From the NCBI RefSeq assembly GCF_044324875.1, contig NZ_CP172185.1: DNA of 64,000 nt, one strand, 5' to 3'. Origin of the DNA: Escherichia coli. GTDB lineage: Bacteria > Pseudomonadota > Gammaproteobacteria > Enterobacterales > Enterobacteriaceae. Shown here in pieces: positions 20,218 through 26,898 of the stretch (position 1 is its first letter; each line of letters opens with the position of its first letter). A model generated the notes under the pieces. That model did not search any database. It was not told the origin of the DNA and was given only the letters and a program-made list of their open reading frames with translations. The position numbers and the translations under genes are program-made.

Positions 20218-21204
20218 TTATGAGCCATAAGATAATGAATTAATGAGAAGGTTGAGTCTTTCATTAAATTCTTTACGGATTTCCAGAGCTTTATCCATAC
20301 TGACTTGTGAAAATGTCACACTGGAGCCGGGTGCAAGTTGAGCCAGAATATCGAGATCAGTACTCACTACTGTCCCCACTGTCATATATCCCCCTCCTGA
20401 TACAGCATCCCTGTGCAAAACTATTGGTGTGCTTCCAGAGGGAACCTGAATTGATCCCACGGGATAACAGGCATCAACGATATTTGATGGATCTGAACCA
20501 GCACCAAATGGCGGGTGCCGATCAACAAAATTAAGTGAGCGCCCTCCCTGAAACCTGAAACCTGTTCTGTCTGAATCCTTACTGATCTTCCATACATCAT
20601 CAAAAAAACTTTCAACTGATTCCTGTTTCAGGCGATGGATATACATTCCGGGTACAACACGTAATTCATTTTCTTTAGTAAAAACTGGACGTAACTCATC
20701 TGGCAGAGTGTAATTTATACGCCCTTTATTACATATTGCTTCCTGTACGGGTAATTCATCTCCGGCCTGTAACCGACGTCCTTTATAACCACCAAGACTG
20801 CCAAGGAGGTAAGTAGAACGACTTCCGGCAATAACAGGGACATTAATACCTCCCGCGATGGCAAGGTAACAGCGTACACCCACCGTGGTGTATGCGATTT
20901 TTAATATCTGTCCTTTCCGGGCTAACAGGGATGTATTCACCGGAACACTCTGATTATCCAGGGTCACCGTAAAAGGGGCACCGCTGACTGCAAAAAGAGT
21001 ATCCTGCTCAAACAAGAGTTCGGGCCCCAGTAATGTGCATTCCAGCGCTGCATCAAACGGGTGATTACCGACAAGCAAATTGGCGGTAACTAACCCTGTA
21101 CGATCTAATGCACCGGATGGCGGGATCCCGAGATGATAAAAGCCTTCTCGTCCTCCGTCCTGAACGGACGTGGATAATCCGGGCGTCAATACTTTAATTC
21201 CCAT
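20218..21204 (-). CDS. KipA/PxpC-like protein (allophanate hydrolase subunit 2 family)
   Basis: Translation from MGIKVLTPGLSTSVQDGGREGFYHLGIPPSGALD...; start trimmed to ATG 21204. Confidence 0.8.
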   Translation of the reverse strand: MGIKVLTPGLSTSVQDGGREGFYHLGIPPSGALDRTGLVTANLLVGNHPFDAALECTLLGPELLFEQDTLFAVSGAPFTVTLDNQSVPVNTSLLARKGQILKIAYTTVGVRCYLAIAGGINVPVIAGSRSTYLLGSLGGYKGRRLQAGDELPVQEAICNKGRINYTLPDELRPVFTKENELRVVPGMYIHRLKQESVESFFDDVWKISKDSDRTGFRFQGGRSLNFVDRHPPFGAGSDPSNIVDACYPVGSIQVPSGSTPIVLHRDAVSGGGYMTVGTVVSTDLDILAQLAPGSSVTFSQVSMDKALEIRKEFNERLNLLINSLSYGS

Positions 21205-22078
21205 ACAGTTCTCCCAGTAAATTTTTAGTATAATCTTCAGGATTTTCTTCAAATGCGTTCAAATCAAAATTTACAGGCCTGATAAGTAATTCAAAATTAC
21301 CAGATTCCACATCACTTATACATTGATTATATTGTTCAGTATTGATCGCCCTGAACTTAATGATGTCCCCTGCCCGGAAAAACACCATAGAGTCTTTGAA
21401 ATATGATAATTTCTGTTCTGTGTCATAAATCGGAGCTGGTGTTATACCGAACAATTGATACCCACCTGCCCCCCGGACTGGATATATAGCCCCGAAGCAC
21501 CCGCCATGACCAACAGAATGTTTTGGTGTATCAGTTCTGGGAACAAGATATTTTGGAACCTGGATTTGCTTTTTCCGGTCAACCATCTGATACATAAAAG
21601 GCAGCCCGGCAACGAAGCCAACCATAGAAACAAACCAGGGACTTGAATGATGGGCCTCAATAAACGTCTGAACATCCGGATATCCGTTTATTTCAGCAGC
21701 ATACTCAAGATCGGTTAATGCCGGGTTTTGATGATTATTCCGGAACCGCATCAGGGTTTCATGAGTCCATGGATCATTATACAATACAGGAATTTCAATT
21801 ATACGTGTCTGTAGTGTCATTTCTCCATTCCCGGAGAGCACATTAACATTTCGTATCTGTTGTAACAAATCATCAGGGTGTATAATGTCGGGATTAAATC
21901 TTATCTGACATGATGCATTTGCAAGGCAAATATCGAGCACACCATTAATATTTAATGATTCTATTTTTCTCGTAAGAGACAAGCTGTGAAAAAATGCTTT
22001 AAGAGACATTTCCTCACTGACTTCGATGAAAAGATGCTCATCAGCACCAAATGTATAGCGCAAATTTATATCAGTCAT
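21194..22078 (-). CDS. KipI/PxpB-like protein (allophanate hydrolase subunit 1 family)
   Basis: 294-aa ORF with cyclophilin-like KipI signature; overlaps downstream gene by 11 bp. Confidence 0.8.
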   Translation of the reverse strand: MTDINLRYTFGADEHLFIEVSEEMSLKAFFHSLSLTRKIESLNINGVLDICLANASCQIRFNPDIIHPDDLLQQIRNVNVLSGNGEMTLQTRIIEIPVLYNDPWTHETLMRFRNNHQNPALTDLEYAAEINGYPDVQTFIEAHHSSPWFVSMVGFVAGLPFMYQMVDRKKQIQVPKYLVPRTDTPKHSVGHGGCFGAIYPVRGAGGYQLFGITPAPIYDTEQKLSYFKDSMVFFRAGDIIKFRAINTEQYNQCISDVESGNFELLIRPVNFDLNAFEENPEDYTKNLLGELYGN

Positions 22079-22087
22079 ACAGGTTCC

Positions 22088-25058: not shown

Positions 25059-25820
25059 TCAGTTTTGAGAATTTACACTTATGTCTGCCTCACGTAAGGC
25101 TTTATTTATTGCAATCAGAAGAGATAAGGCACCGGGCGTATCACTATGGACACAGACAGAAGAGAAATGAATGTCAATATCCTGATCTTCTACAGTACGA
25201 ACTTTTCCCTCCAGACAGGCACGCAGCACTTTTTTTGCGACATCATCAGGATTAAGAGGTTCAGTTCTCCGTATAAATACAATGGAACCGCTTTGATCAT
25301 AATCCCTGTCGGCATAAAACTCACAAATAACAGGATGTCCGATTTGCGTCGCTTCTTTCCAGATGGCACTACCATACATGCAATATATTCTCAATTCAGG
25401 CGCATAACTATGAAGCGTTGAGACAAAATGCTTTGCAGCATCCCGATCATGAGCAAGATGCATATACAACGCGCCATGAGGCTTAACATGGTTTACAGGC
25501 ACATTGTGTAATGTGGCAAATTCACGCAAGGCCCCCAGCTGATAAATCATGTCATTGGTGATTTCCTCTGCGGTGCAGTGAATATGACGCCGGCCAAAAC
25601 CAGCCAGATCACGATAACCGGGATGAGCACCGACAGACACACCACTGTCACGGGCGCTGATTATTGTACGGTGCATAATCCCCGGATCACCTGCATGAAA
25701 ACCTGTCGCTATATTCGCTGAGGAGATGTATGGCATAATATCAATATCCCGGATATCTCCGAGAGTCCATGCTCCAAAGCTTTCCCCCATATCAGAGCTG
25801 ATATCAATACTGCGAAGCAT
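25059..25820 (-). CDS. LamB/YcsF-family protein (PxpA-like)
   Basis: Translation from MLRSIDISSDMGESFGAW...; first gene of the minus-strand operon. Confidence 0.8.
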   Translation of the reverse strand: MLRSIDISSDMGESFGAWTLGDIRDIDIMPYISSANIATGFHAGDPGIMHRTIISARDSGVSVGAHPGYRDLAGFGRRHIHCTAEEITNDMIYQLGALREFATLHNVPVNHVKPHGALYMHLAHDRDAAKHFVSTLHSYAPELRIYCMYGSAIWKEATQIGHPVICEFYADRDYDQSGSIVFIRRTEPLNPDDVAKKVLRACLEGKVRTVEDQDIDIHFSSVCVHSDTPGALSLLIAINKALREADISVNSQN

Positions 25821-25962
25821 TAAAACCTCCGTCTGACAAATACGGTAACAGTATGTCATGTAGCACATTTGTTTCTTTATTGTAAATTATTATTTTTCTA
25901 TGGTAATATATTAAATTTATTTATAATTACTGTTGCAAAAATATCTTTATCAGGAAAATTTG

Positions 25963-26898
25963 ATGAACATCACACTCAGACAGATAAAATATTTCGTATC
26001 AACAGCGGAGTCCGGATCGTTATCAACTGCAGCCAAATCACTCAATATTTCACAGTCTGCGATAACAACAGCAATTCAGGGGCTTGAAAGGGACATCGGT
26101 TATAAATTACTGATTCGCTCAAAATCTGGCGTTGATTTAACAGATGAGGGAAGACTGTTCTTATACAATGCCTACAATATTATCCGGACATATGATGAGG
26201 CAATAAATACAGTGCATGTTCAGAAGCCTTTGCATGGAACAGTTTCCATTGCGGCGACTTATACAATAATGGGATATTTTTTACCTGTTCATCTGAAACA
26301 ATTTTCAAGAATTTATCCACATATAAAGCTGGAGCTTTTTGAAAATCAAAGAAGCATTATTGAAACCGGACTTCTCAGCGGAAAATATGATATTGGGATT
26401 GTAATCAATGATAATCTGACATGTCCCGATATTGTATCAGAAACACTGTTACGGTCGGAGCGCCGTATATGGTTACCATCCGGCCACCCTCTGCTGGAAA
26501 AAGAAATTCTCTCCCTGAATGATATTGTCTCAGAGCCTTTTATTATCCTTGATGTGGATGAAGCATGGGAAACAGCAAAACGTTACTGGAATACGGCCAG
26601 TACCATGCCAGATGTAATTTTACATACGCATTCTATTGAAGCTGTACGAAGTATGGTTGCGAATGATATGGGTATAACCATTCTTTCTGACATGGTTTAT
26701 CGCCCATGGTCGCTTGAAGGGAAACGTATAGAAACACGCGCATTATCTAAATCAGAAGTTTTCCCAATGAGTATTGGCCTGGCATGGCGTAATAATGTTG
26801 AGTTTACGCCTGCAATGCAGGCTTTCATCAATTATTTCAGAAAGATTTTTATGTGTTCTCCCGGTTATCAAAACCGGAATGTTGACCACTTTATCTGA
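25963..26898 (+). CDS. LysR-family transcriptional regulator
   Basis: MNITLRQIKYFVSTAESGSLSTAAKSLNISQSAITTAIQGLE... HTH; divergent from the pxp-like operon. Confidence 0.8.
   Translation: MNITLRQIKYFVSTAESGSLSTAAKSLNISQSAITTAIQGLERDIGYKLLIRSKSGVDLTDEGRLFLYNAYNIIRTYDEAINTVHVQKPLHGTVSIAATYTIMGYFLPVHLKQFSRIYPHIKLELFENQRSIIETGLLSGKYDIGIVINDNLTCPDIVSETLLRSERRIWLPSGHPLLEKEILSLNDIVSEPFIILDVDEAWETAKRYWNTASTMPDVILHTHSIEAVRSMVANDMGITILSDMVYRPWSLEGKRIETRALSKSEVFPMSIGLAWRNNVEFTPAMQAFINYFRKIFMCSPGYQNRNVDHFI

What the first reader, a model, noticed from the sequence alone, without database searches (positions are those of the whole stretch)
20218..26898. Biotin-dependent PxpA/BCCP/biotin-carboxylase/KipI/KipA-like operon with IS2 in the BCCP gene, next to a LysR regulator
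The minus-strand operon encodes a LamB/YcsF protein, an 84-aa biotinyl carrier (now split by IS2 with CTGGA duplication), a biotin carboxylase, KipI- and KipA-like proteins and a membrane protein, divergent from a LysR gene. Unlike the E. coli pxpABC 5-oxoprolinase genes, this cluster includes its own biotin carboxylase and carrier, pointing to an ATP- and biotin-dependent carboxylase/hydrolase of unknown substrate. The IS2 insertion should abolish the carrier and be polar on downstream genes.
Basis: partly seen in the sequence, partly recalled or inferred. Interest (0 to 1): 0.5.

Follow-up and report, generated by a model that had tools for sequence, protein, structure and literature searches.

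The report
IS2-broken biotin-dependent lactam hydrolase operon
A rare E. coli island carries a widespread but biochemically uncharacterised operon that pairs 5-oxoprolinase-like lactam-opening subunits with their own biotin carboxylase and carrier, probably to split a small lactam such as 2-pyrrolidone into GABA, and in this strain an IS2 insertion in the carrier gene has very likely switched it off.

Summary
On the minus strand lie PxpA (LamB/YcsF), an 81-aa biotin carrier, a biotin carboxylase, PxpB/KipI-like and PxpC/KipA-like proteins and a DUF1097 membrane protein, divergent from a LysR gene. A complete 1331-bp IS2 with a CTGGA duplication splits the carrier gene after codon 60. Removing it restores a sequence identical to IS-free E. 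coli genomes, with the biotinyl-lysine motif EIMKQ. The cluster is in only 11 of 5426 complete E. coli genomes, but at least 563 species encode a relative of its PxpB-like protein. In the 79 best loci with enough flank, 51 have the five-gene form and 28 a three-gene form lacking BC/BCCP. The five-gene form looks ancestral. The three-gene form in the P. putida group matches the layout of PP_2919-2922, genetically shown to be a butyrolactam hydrolase. PxpB here keeps the catalytic lysine and two structural elements of urea carboxylase that canonical PxpB lacks. In E. coli the cluster always travels with a MocR regulator and its own GABA transaminase. Best reading: a split, urea-amidolyase-like, biotin-dependent lactam hydrolase, probably 2-pyrrolidone to GABA, now inactive. 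The chemistry is inferred, not shown. Moderately interesting: a new variant of known kinds.

The parts
15498..18912 (+). ABC transporter of the island (substrate-binding protein, fused double permease, ATPase). A possible uptake system, but linked to the cluster only in E. coli.
   Evidence: RefSeq annotation of the identical IS-free locus. Only weak NCBIfam similarity to aminoethylphosphonate/thiamine/polyamine-type systems. No homologue within 10 kb in any of the 79 other loci.
19721..20203 (-). DUF1097 membrane protein (160 aa), last gene of the operon in E. coli. It occupies the place taken by an NCS1-like permease in other genera.
   Evidence: Absent near all 79 related loci.
20218..21204 (-). 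PxpC/KipA-like protein (CT_A_B, 328 aa): one half of a urea-carboxylase-type carboxyltransferase.
   Evidence: NCBIfam TIGR00724 is passed; the PxpC equivalog is failed (223.5 against a cut-off of 500). Matches K. lactis urea carboxylase residues 478-795 at 1.4e-53 and E. coli YbgK at 2.1e-47. 36% identical to K-12 PxpC.
21194..22078 (-). PxpB/KipI-like protein (CT_C_D, 294 aa): the other half of the carboxyltransferase. It has the Lys-Tyr pair at the urea-carboxylase catalytic-lysine position.
   Evidence: Fails the PxpB equivalog (73.1 against 145.55). K175 aligns with KlUA K1605. K175 and Y176 are invariant in 18 orthologues. A UC-like insertion and C-terminal extension are absent from K-12 PxpB.
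22088..23449 (-). Biotin carboxylase (453 aa), intact.
   Evidence: Passes NCBIfam NF009471 (703.7 against 686). The glycine-rich loop GGGGKG and the EMNTRIQVEH motif are present in the translation.
23460..23530 (-). Orphaned 3' fragment of the BCCP gene (codons 61-81 plus stop, preceded by the CTGGA copy).
   Evidence: Translation QFKVENGEEVEPGQVLATIEII*.
23531..24861 (+). IS2, complete, transposase ORFs on the strand opposite to the operon. The target duplication CTGGA lies at 23526-23530 and 24862-24866.
24862..25041 (-). 5' fragment of the BCCP gene (codons 1-60, including biotinyl-lysine K45). It now reads on into IS2 for 28 more codons, to a stop at 24775-24777.
   Evidence: The intact protein passes NCBIfam NF005457 (121.3 against 87).
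25059..25820 (-). PxpA (LamB/YcsF, 253 aa), first gene of the operon: the presumed hydrolase of the activated lactam.
   Evidence: Passes the subfamily model NF003814 (278.9 against 226) but no PxpA equivalog. 32% identical to K-12 PxpA.
25963..26898 (+). Divergent LysR-family regulator.
   Evidence: A 42-56% identical LysR gene is divergent from the operon in 78 of 79 related loci.
27040..31296 (.). MocR-type PLP regulator (27040-28533, minus), GABA:2-oxoglutarate transaminase (28652-29917, plus) and an amino-acid transporter (30052-31296, plus): the probable downstream pathway.
   Evidence: The GABA-AT passes equivalog NF005272 (842 against 725). This block is present in exactly the 11 E. 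coli genomes that carry the pxp/BC block. Its G+C is higher than that of the pxp block.

Best explanation
This is the E. coli island copy of a widespread module: a LysR regulator plus PxpA-BCCP-BC-PxpB-PxpC. It most likely encodes an ATP-, bicarbonate- and biotin-dependent lactam hydrolase built like a split urea amidolyase. Proposed steps, all inferred except where noted. (1) The LysR protein senses the lactam and switches on the operon. (2) Biotin carboxylase uses ATP and bicarbonate to carboxylate the biotin on K45 of the 81-aa carrier. (3) The PxpB/PxpC pair, a two-chain homologue of the urea carboxylase carboxyltransferase domain, passes the carboxyl group to the ring amide nitrogen, with K175 of PxpB as the base. 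(4) PxpA hydrolyses the now activated N-carboxy-lactam. (5) The resulting carbamate loses CO2, giving the omega-amino acid. The most likely substrate is 2-pyrrolidone (butyrolactam) or a close relative, giving GABA. The island's own MocR-controlled GABA transaminase would take GABA further. In this strain IS2 has inserted after codon 60 of the carrier gene. The carrier loses the last 21 residues of its fold, and the genes downstream (BC, PxpB, PxpC, DUF1097) now lie behind 1.3 kb of IS sequence entered in antisense. The dedicated biotin arm is therefore dead and the rest of the operon is probably silenced.
For: Shown by sequence. All parts are present, and intact except the carrier. The Met-Lys biotinylation motif is invariant in 55 of 55 operon carriers. 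The IS2 structure and duplication are as described. PxpB and PxpC are homologous to the urea carboxylase CT domain. K175 aligns with the lysine described as the essential general base of K. lactis urea carboxylase (PMC5770610; alignments) and is invariant in the orthogroup. Canonical PxpB, KipI and MSMEG_0436 have Arg at that position. A roughly 16-residue insertion and a roughly 50-residue C-terminal extension are shared with UC and are absent from K-12 PxpB. Comparative evidence. At least 563 species encode a relative of the PxpB-like protein. Of the 79 best loci with enough flank, 51 have the BCCP and BC genes inserted between PxpA and PxpB, and 78 have the divergent LysR gene. The five-gene state occupies all deep branches of the PxpB+PxpC tree. 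It recurs in a more distant lineage with a GntR regulator. Substrate evidence. Three-gene members in the P. putida group have the layout of PP_2919-2922. Those four genes have fitness of -3.8 to -5.1 in a single condition pair, and their deletion abolished growth on butyrolactam as sole nitrogen source (bioRxiv 10.1101/2021.12.09.472016). The sister lineage to E. coli has a GABA transaminase directly after PxpC. In E. coli the MocR/GABA-AT block co-occurs with the cluster in 11 of 11 genomes. Biotin link in trans. Cryo-EM of the mycobacterial PxpC/PxpB homologues shows them holding the biotin of a BCCP domain 'positioned to participate in a carboxylation reaction' (bioRxiv 10.1101/2025.10.28.685139).
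Against: No five-gene form has been tested biochemically or genetically in anything I could read. P. aeruginosa PA0493-PA0496 is described as being of unknown function (PMC6249292). The three-gene orthologues work in P. putida without dedicated BC/BCCP, so biotin dependence is not demonstrated. It would require them to borrow the housekeeping AccB/AccC. Orthology to KT2440 PP_2919-2922 rests on gene layout and annotation in related P. putida-group genomes. The KT2440 sequences themselves were not available. GABA-AT linkage is rare outside the enteric lineage (2 of 51 five-gene loci). In E. coli the GABA-AT block has a different G+C (51-55% against 36-45%). The NCS1-like permease that follows 34 of 51 five-gene loci belongs to a family known for nucleobase, hydantoin and allantoin transport, so another cyclic amide is possible. 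From memory only (the paper is not held): Niehaus et al. 2017 reported ATP-dependent 5-oxoprolinase activity from recombinant PxpABC without added BC or BCCP. Polarity of IS2 is inferred.
Confidence: 0.55

Rival explanations
1. It is a second 5-oxoprolinase, acting on the same substrate as the host's PxpABC but with its own ATP-using module. The nearby GABA transaminase would be unrelated.
For: RefSeq names the proteins '5-oxoprolinase subunit A/B/C family'. PxpA passes a PxpA subfamily model. The A, B and C subunits are all present.
Against: PxpB and PxpC fall far below the 5-oxoprolinase equivalog cut-offs. They are only 29-36% identical to the host's own PxpABC. In P. putida the 5-oxoproline phenotype maps to the other paralogue set (PP_4575-7), which has a different layout, while the set with this layout is specific for butyrolactam. 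At the UC-lysine position canonical PxpB has Arg where this subfamily has Lys.
Confidence: 0.12
2. It is a true multi-subunit carboxylase or amidolyase for an acyclic or ureide nitrogen compound (urea, guanidine, a hydantoin, or a pyrimidine-like ring). PxpA would play the part that allophanate hydrolase plays in urea amidolyase.
For: The CT halves match urea carboxylase and keep its catalytic lysine. An NCS1-like permease follows 34 of 51 five-gene loci, and that family carries hydantoins, allantoin and nucleobases (established knowledge).
Against: No allophanate hydrolase or amidase gene is annotated in the island. Mycobacterial homologues showed no urea carboxylase activity. The NCS1 assignment is weak (E 5e-7 in NCBIfam, 0.012 in Pfam). 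The only genetic data in the orthogroup point to butyrolactam.
Confidence: 0.15
3. Lactam hydrolysis by PxpABC-type enzymes does not use biotin. The BC and BCCP genes in the operon would serve something else, for example as a decoy or regulatory partner, as suggested for the mycobacterial proteins that sequester the BCCP of acyl-CoA carboxylase.
For: 28 of 79 orthologous loci lack BC/BCCP, and one such set is functional in P. putida. The mycobacterial authors interpret biotin binding as regulatory sequestration. From memory: in vitro PxpABC activity has been reported without BC or BCCP.
Against: BCCP and BC are inserted inside the operon, between PxpA and PxpB, in a fixed order across Gamma-, Beta- and Alphaproteobacteria, and this state looks ancestral. 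PxpA, PxpB and PxpC contain no recognisable ATP-binding domain (Pfam families), whereas BC does. The catalytic lysine of the carboxyl-transfer site is invariant.
Confidence: 0.15

Closest known systems
P. putida KT2440 PP_2919-PP_2922 butyrolactam (2-pyrrolidone) hydrolase with its LysR activator (bioRxiv 10.1101/2021.12.09.472016)
   Same: Same layout of a divergent LysR gene followed by PxpA, PxpB and PxpC. P. putida-group loci with that layout are 63-66% (PxpB), 54-55% (PxpC), 58% (PxpA) and 52-54% (LysR) identical to the E. coli proteins, and they nest inside the five-gene clade. They have the same VPKY motif.
   Different: The P. putida form has no BCCP or BC genes and no downstream permease. 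Orthology to the KT2440 genes is inferred from layout and annotation, not from the KT2440 sequences.
Canonical PxpABC 5-oxoprolinase (E. coli ybgJKL, B. subtilis kipI/kipA/ycsF; Niehaus et al. 2017)
   Same: The same three protein families (LamB_YcsF, CT_C_D, CT_A_B), and the same general job of opening a 5-membered lactam at the expense of ATP.
   Different: Only 29-36% identity to the host's own set. The PxpB and PxpC equivalog models are failed. PxpB is about 75 residues longer, with UC-like elements and Lys instead of Arg at the UC base position. It has its own BC and BCCP.
Urea carboxylase / urea amidolyase (K. lactis, PDB 3VA7 and 5I8I)
   Same: A BC, a BCCP and a CT domain built from the A_B and C_D subdomains. 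The catalytic lysine is conserved. The logic is the same: N-carboxylate an amide, then hydrolyse it.
   Different: Here the parts are four separate polypeptides rather than one chain. The hydrolase partner is LamB/YcsF, not an amidase-signature allophanate hydrolase. The substrate is probably a lactam, not urea.
P. aeruginosa PA0491-PA0497 (uncharacterised 'probable biotin-requiring enzyme / acyl-CoA carboxylase subunit' operon)
   Same: From the published locus-tag descriptions, the same operon type as the five-gene module found here in Pseudomonas loci, next to the bio operon in some species.
   Different: No function has been assigned. In Pseudomonas loci the module is followed by an NCS1-like permease rather than DUF1097, and it has no linked GABA-AT. 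The PAO1 sequences themselves were not compared.
[quoted passage not shown]
   Same: A PxpC/PxpB-type pair that physically binds the biotin of a BCCP domain supplied by another protein.
   Different: Distant homologues (E about 1e-13 to 1e-25) with Arg at the base position. Interpreted as regulators. No dedicated BC or BCCP.

Membership tests
Biotin-dependent carboxylase (general: BC + BCCP + CT) | ATP-grasp biotin carboxylase component | tested here: met
   The 453-aa protein passes NCBIfam NF009471 (703.7 against 686). The Pfam domains Biotin_carb_N, CPSase_L_D2 and Biotin_carb_C are found in its homologues.
Biotin-dependent carboxylase (general: BC + BCCP + CT) | Carrier domain with the biotinyl-lysine (Met-Lys) motif about 35 residues from the C-terminus | tested here: met
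   The reconstructed 81-aa protein has EIMKQ with K45, 36 residues from the end. It passes NF005457. Met-Lys is invariant in 55 of 55 carriers. In this strain the gene is disrupted.
Biotin-dependent carboxylase (general: BC + BCCP + CT) | Carboxyltransferase component | tested here: met
   CT_C_D and CT_A_B proteins are homologous to the urea carboxylase CT domain, and the catalytic Lys is conserved.
Biotin-dependent carboxylase (general: BC + BCCP + CT) | Biotinylation of the carrier and carboxyl transfer to a substrate | not testable with these tools
   Needs a streptavidin blot and enzyme assays.
PxpABC 5-oxoprolinase | PxpA, PxpB and PxpC genes together | tested here: met
   All three families are present in one operon.
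PxpABC 5-oxoprolinase | Proteins reach the curated equivalog scores for PxpB and PxpC | tested here: not met
   PxpB scores 73.1 against 145.55 (TIGR00370). PxpC scores 223.5 against 500 (NF045499). PxpA passes only a subfamily model.
PxpABC 5-oxoprolinase | 5-oxoproline as substrate | not testable with these tools
   Indirect evidence points elsewhere: the P. putida paralogue set with this layout is butyrolactam-specific.
Urea carboxylase / urea amidolyase | Single polypeptide BC-CT-BCCP reaching the TIGR02712 score | tested here: not met
   There are four separate proteins. Their partial scores (507, 241 and 101 bits) compare with a cut-off of 1303.85.
Urea carboxylase / urea amidolyase | Catalytic lysine of the CT site (KlUA K1605) | tested here: met
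   K175 of the PxpB-like protein aligns with it and is invariant in the orthogroup.
Urea carboxylase / urea amidolyase | Partner allophanate hydrolase (amidase-signature) gene | tested here: not met
   None is annotated in 32 kb of the IS-free island. LamB/YcsF stands in its place.
Urea carboxylase / urea amidolyase | Urea-binding residues | not tested
   The paper defining them (Fan et al. 2012) was not available.
PP_2919-2922-type butyrolactam hydrolase orthogroup | Divergent LysR gene directly next to PxpA-PxpB-PxpC | tested here: met
   Found in 78 of 79 loci, including E. coli, where BCCP and BC are inserted. It matches the annotations of PP_2919-22 and differs from PP_4575-79.
PP_2919-2922-type butyrolactam hydrolase orthogroup | Sequence orthology to the KT2440 proteins themselves | not tested
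   The KT2440 sequences were not obtainable. Proxies from P. putida W15Oct28, P. juntendi, P. taiwanensis and another P. putida assembly were used.
IS2 (IS3 family) | 1331 bp, two overlapping transposase ORFs, imperfect terminal inverted repeats, 5-bp target duplication | tested here: met
   Full-length 96.8-97.9% identity to the two IS copies in L002, one of which RefSeq names IS2.

The most novel reading that the evidence does not exclude
All PxpABC-type 'ATP-dependent' lactamases, including the housekeeping bacterial 5-oxoprolinase, may in fact be biotin-dependent enzymes. Their ATP use would come from a biotin carboxylase, and the lactam would be activated by N-carboxylation from carboxybiotin rather than by phosphorylation. 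The five-gene operon would preserve the ancestral self-contained form. Three-gene forms (E. coli ybgJKL, B. subtilis kipI/kipA/ycsF, P. putida PP_2920-2) would borrow the fatty-acid-synthesis AccB/AccC, as the mycobacterial homologues visibly do with AccA3.
Probability: 0.3. Interest if true: 0.8.

Novelty: new variant of a known kind. Interest (0 to 1): 0.5.

Why it matters
PxpABC enzymes repair or consume lactams in most bacteria, yet none of their three subunits has a recognisable ATP-binding domain, so how they spend ATP is unexplained. An operon that hard-wires a biotin carboxylase and a carrier between PxpA and PxpB is present in hundreds of species and appears ancestral to a genetically proven butyrolactam hydrolase. 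That gives a concrete, testable mechanism: amide activation by N-carboxylation, as in urea amidolyase. It would also give a function to a conserved Pseudomonas operon (PA0492-PA0496) that is currently labelled as an acyl-CoA carboxylase. For E. coli it defines a rare accessory island that probably lets gut and poultry isolates use 2-pyrrolidone-type lactams through GABA. It also shows that island being eroded by IS elements in this strain.

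Tried and rejected
(1) Eight full-text literature searches found no paper that characterises the five-gene operon or proposes a biotin mechanism for Pxp enzymes. Niehaus 2017, Fan 2012 and Tong 2013 are not held, so statements about them are from memory and marked as such.

(2) I considered that PxpC is closer to urea carboxylase than to other PxpC proteins, since the PDB search gave 1.4e-53 against 2.1e-47. The exhaustive search shows many stand-alone PxpC-like clusters scoring above the urea amidolyase hit, so I dropped this as an argument. 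The UC-like features of PxpB are the better evidence.

(3) General linkage to GABA transaminase was rejected: only 2 of 51 five-gene and 0 of 28 three-gene loci have one within 10 kb. The link holds only in the enteric lineage.

(4) DUF1097, the ABC transporter and MocR are not conserved partners; none is found in the 79 loci.

(5) A rescue promoter for the genes downstream of IS2 was looked for. Promoter-like matches (5 found) do not exceed the shuffled expectation of 4.6.

(6) The published statement that PxpBC 'show ATP hydrolysis activity' traces to an in-silico teaching paper, so I did not count it against a biotin mechanism.

(7) A direct look-up of KT2440 proteins through cluster membership and encoding contigs did not return the KT2440 record.

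Full report
OBSERVATION. On the minus strand, ORF listing and the RefSeq annotation of an identical IS-free locus give these genes:
- DUF1097, 19721-20203
- a PxpC/KipA-like protein, 20218-21204
- a PxpB/KipI-like protein, 21194-22078
- a biotin carboxylase, 22088-23449
- a split biotin carrier gene
- PxpA (LamB/YcsF), 25059-25820

A divergent LysR gene lies at 25963-26898. The window aligns to E. coli chromosome NZ_AP045773 on both sides of a 1331-bp insertion. The element runs from TAGACTGG at 23531 to AAATCCA at 24861 and is bracketed by CTGGA at 23526-23530 and 24862-24866. It is full-length and 96.8-97.9% identical to the two IS copies of strain MS 119-7, one of which RefSeq names IS2. 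It has imperfect terminal inverted repeats of about 41 bp. Removing the element and one CTGGA copy gives a sequence identical to the IS-free genome over 6 kb.

The restored carrier is 81 aa from the RefSeq start and carries E-I-M-K-Q with the lysine 36 residues from the C-terminus. Met-Lys is invariant in 55 of 55 homologous operon carriers. The insertion lies between codons 60 and 61. The remaining ORF encodes 60 native plus 28 IS-derived residues. The last 21 residues of the biotinyl domain are orphaned.

WHERE IT OCCURS. Only 11 of 5426 complete E. coli genomes carry the cluster, all at 99.9% identity or more, and none has an IS in the carrier gene. Strain MS 119-7 has IS2 copies at two other sites of the same island. 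The island is flanked by IS66-family elements, an Ag43 pseudogene and a GTPase gene. The pxp/BC/LysR block has 36-45% G+C outside the IS. The exact PxpB protein is recorded on at least 1000 contigs, the counter's cap, so it is not rare among draft assemblies.

Outside E. coli the nearest PxpB relatives are only 59-69% identical, but they are very numerous. These are mainly Pseudomonas, Dickeya/Lonsdalea/Musicola, Marinomonas, Burkholderiales and Rhizobiales.

ANATOMY OF THE MODULE. I ran a tblastn census of the 79 retrieved loci that had enough flank.
- 51 loci have the order PxpA-BCCP-BC-PxpB-PxpC.
- 28 loci have PxpA-PxpB-PxpC with no BC or BCCP.
- 78 of 79 have the same divergent LysR gene (42-56% identical to the E. 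coli one).
- A protein of about 440 aa with weak NCS1-permease similarity follows 34 of the 51 five-gene loci and none of the 28 three-gene loci.
- DUF1097, the island's ABC transporter and MocR are never linked elsewhere.

On a PxpB+PxpC neighbour-joining tree, all deep branches are five-gene. The three-gene state appears several times nested inside Pseudomonas, and once in an Enterobacteriaceae metagenome bin that is sister to E. coli. BC and BCCP therefore look ancestral to the orthogroup and repeatedly lost. A more distant lineage (PxpC 45% identical) shows the same five-gene order with a GntR regulator and an ABC transporter. The layout is thus not confined to one orthogroup. From the published locus-tag descriptions, the Pseudomonas version appears to be the PA0491-PA0497 operon type of P. 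aeruginosa. Its function is described as unknown. I did not compare the PAO1 sequences themselves.

WHAT THE PROTEINS ARE.
- BC passes a specific NCBIfam equivalog (NF009471).
- The carrier passes NF005457.
- PxpA passes only a PxpA subfamily model.
- PxpB and PxpC fall far below the 5-oxoprolinase equivalog cut-offs, at 73 against 146 and 224 against 500.
- They are 29-36% identical to the host's own PxpABC.

PxpB aligns over nearly its whole length with the C_D half of the K. lactis urea carboxylase CT domain, and PxpC with the A_B half. The lysine described as the essential general base of that CT site is K1605 (PMC5770610). It aligns with K175 of the island PxpB in the motif VPKYLVPRT. K175 and Y176 are invariant in 18 orthologues and are also kept in the three-gene forms. 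KipI, E. coli YbgJ and MSMEG_0436 have Arg at that position. The subfamily also shares with urea carboxylase a roughly 16-residue insertion and a roughly 50-residue C-terminal extension that canonical PxpB lacks. The apparent greater closeness of PxpC to urea carboxylase than to YbgK did not survive the exhaustive search, in which many stand-alone PxpC-like clusters score higher than the urea amidolyase hit. I do not use that argument.

SUBSTRATE. A P. putida KT2440 fitness study showed that PP_2920-2 and the adjacent regulator PP_2919 are needed specifically for butyrolactam as nitrogen source. 5-Oxoproline use needs the other paralogue set, PP_4575-7. Its supplementary table lists PP_2919 as a LysR-family regulator, PP_2920 as a nitrogen-compound degradation enzyme, PP_2921 as unknown and PP_2922 as urea-amidolyase-related. 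All four have fitness of -3.8 to -5.1 in one condition pair only. PP_4575-79 has the order C, B, A, MFS transporter, LysR.

The three-gene loci I retrieved from P. putida W15Oct28, P. juntendi, P. taiwanensis and another P. putida assembly have the PP_2919-22 layout, not the PP_4575-79 layout. I could not obtain the KT2440 sequences, so this orthology is an inference from synteny.

Two further observations point to GABA as the product. The sister lineage to E. coli has a GABA transaminase, which passes equivalog NF005272, starting 61 bp after PxpC. In E. coli a MocR regulator, a GABA transaminase passing the same model, and an amino-acid transporter are present in exactly the same 11 genomes as the cluster. 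That block shows no megablast match elsewhere in the 5426 genomes, core gabT and puuE included. Against this, GABA-AT linkage is rare elsewhere (2 of 51 loci), and the two E. coli blocks differ in G+C.

MECHANISM (INFERRED). PxpA, PxpB and PxpC have no recognisable ATP-binding domain. The only ATP-using protein in the operon is the biotin carboxylase. The parts are those of urea amidolyase, with LamB/YcsF in place of allophanate hydrolase. I therefore propose the following steps:
1. BC carboxylates the carrier's biotin.
2. PxpB/C transfers the carboxyl group to the lactam nitrogen.
3. PxpA hydrolyses the activated N-carboxy-lactam.
4. The carbamate decarboxylates, giving the omega-amino acid.

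The net reaction is lactam plus ATP plus water giving amino acid plus ADP plus phosphate, which is the stoichiometry expected of an ATP-dependent lactamase.

Independent structural support that PxpC/PxpB-type pairs take biotin from a BCCP comes from cryo-EM of the mycobacterial homologues bound to AccA3. [quoted passage not shown] The repeated loss of BC and BCCP, with function retained in P. putida, fits three-gene forms borrowing the housekeeping AccB/AccC. It fits a biotin-independent mechanism equally well, and that is the main rival. The only statement I found that PxpBC itself hydrolyses ATP traces to an in-silico teaching article. From memory, the original 5-oxoprolinase paper reported activity of recombinant PxpABC without added BC or BCCP. 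I could not read that paper.

CONSEQUENCE OF THE IS2. The carrier keeps K45 but loses the C-terminal quarter of a small domain of only 81 residues, so a functional, biotinylatable domain is very unlikely. This is an inference from the size of the truncation. BC, PxpB, PxpC and DUF1097 lie downstream of the insertion. Transcription from the operon promoter would enter IS2 antisense to its transposase genes, after a premature stop. Polarity is therefore expected but was not measured. Promoter-like matches near the junction are no more frequent than in shuffled sequence. PxpA, upstream of the insertion, should still be made.

VERDICT. This is a rare E. coli copy of a very widespread, uncharacterised, self-contained biotin-dependent version of the Pxp lactam hydrolases. 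It is most likely specific for 2-pyrrolidone or a similar lactam and feeds GABA catabolism, and it has been inactivated here by IS2. It is a new variant of known kinds (Pxp lactamases and urea amidolyase), not a new category. Its main value is that it makes the unexplained ATP dependence of Pxp enzymes directly testable.

Noticed in passing
window 32646-33955: A second insertion relative to the IS-free island: a 1310-bp IS3-family element with ends TGAACCGCCCCGGG and a GTAC duplication. It sits inside the island's lldD (L-lactate dehydrogenase) gene, which is therefore also disrupted in this strain. From memory it resembles IS629.
   Followed up: partly
window about 42600-43601, 49914-50914, 51524-52527, 58959-59755: Further copies or partial copies of the same IS3-family element (99.7-100% identical over about 0.8-1.0 kb to the cut copy at the end of L001). 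The window is unusually rich in IS elements.
   Followed up: no
window 11690: One extra C relative to NZ_AP045773 (L001 4692), inside the ISEc8 (IS66-family) transposase that RefSeq marks as frameshifted in that genome. The gene may be intact in this strain. Eight substitutions cluster at 12704-13611.
   Followed up: no
L002 (E. coli MS 119-7) 1224-2452 and 9631-10859: The same island in another strain carries two IS2 copies at different sites, one inside the ABC-transporter ATPase gene and one between the LysR and MocR genes. The island seems to be a recurrent IS2 target.
   Followed up: partly
L003, L011-L013 (Pseudomonas): In some Pseudomonas species the five-gene module and its NCS1-like permease lie immediately upstream of the biotin synthesis operon (bioB, bioF, bioH, bioC, bioD). 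This neighbourhood is suggestive for a biotin-dependent enzyme but was seen in only 4 of 51 loci.
   Followed up: partly
L094: A more distant CT_C_D/CT_A_B pair sits with two CoA-transferases, an HpcH/HpaI-type lyase and an IclR regulator, with no PxpA and no BC or BCCP. The carboxyltransferase-like pair has evidently been recruited to quite different pathways.
   Followed up: no
L004 (Agrobacterium tumefaciens) 15295-16083: A second, stand-alone LamB/YcsF gene (57% identical to the island PxpA) lies 6 kb from the five-gene module, beyond an IS66 element and next to a GntR regulator and an ABC transporter.
   Followed up: no
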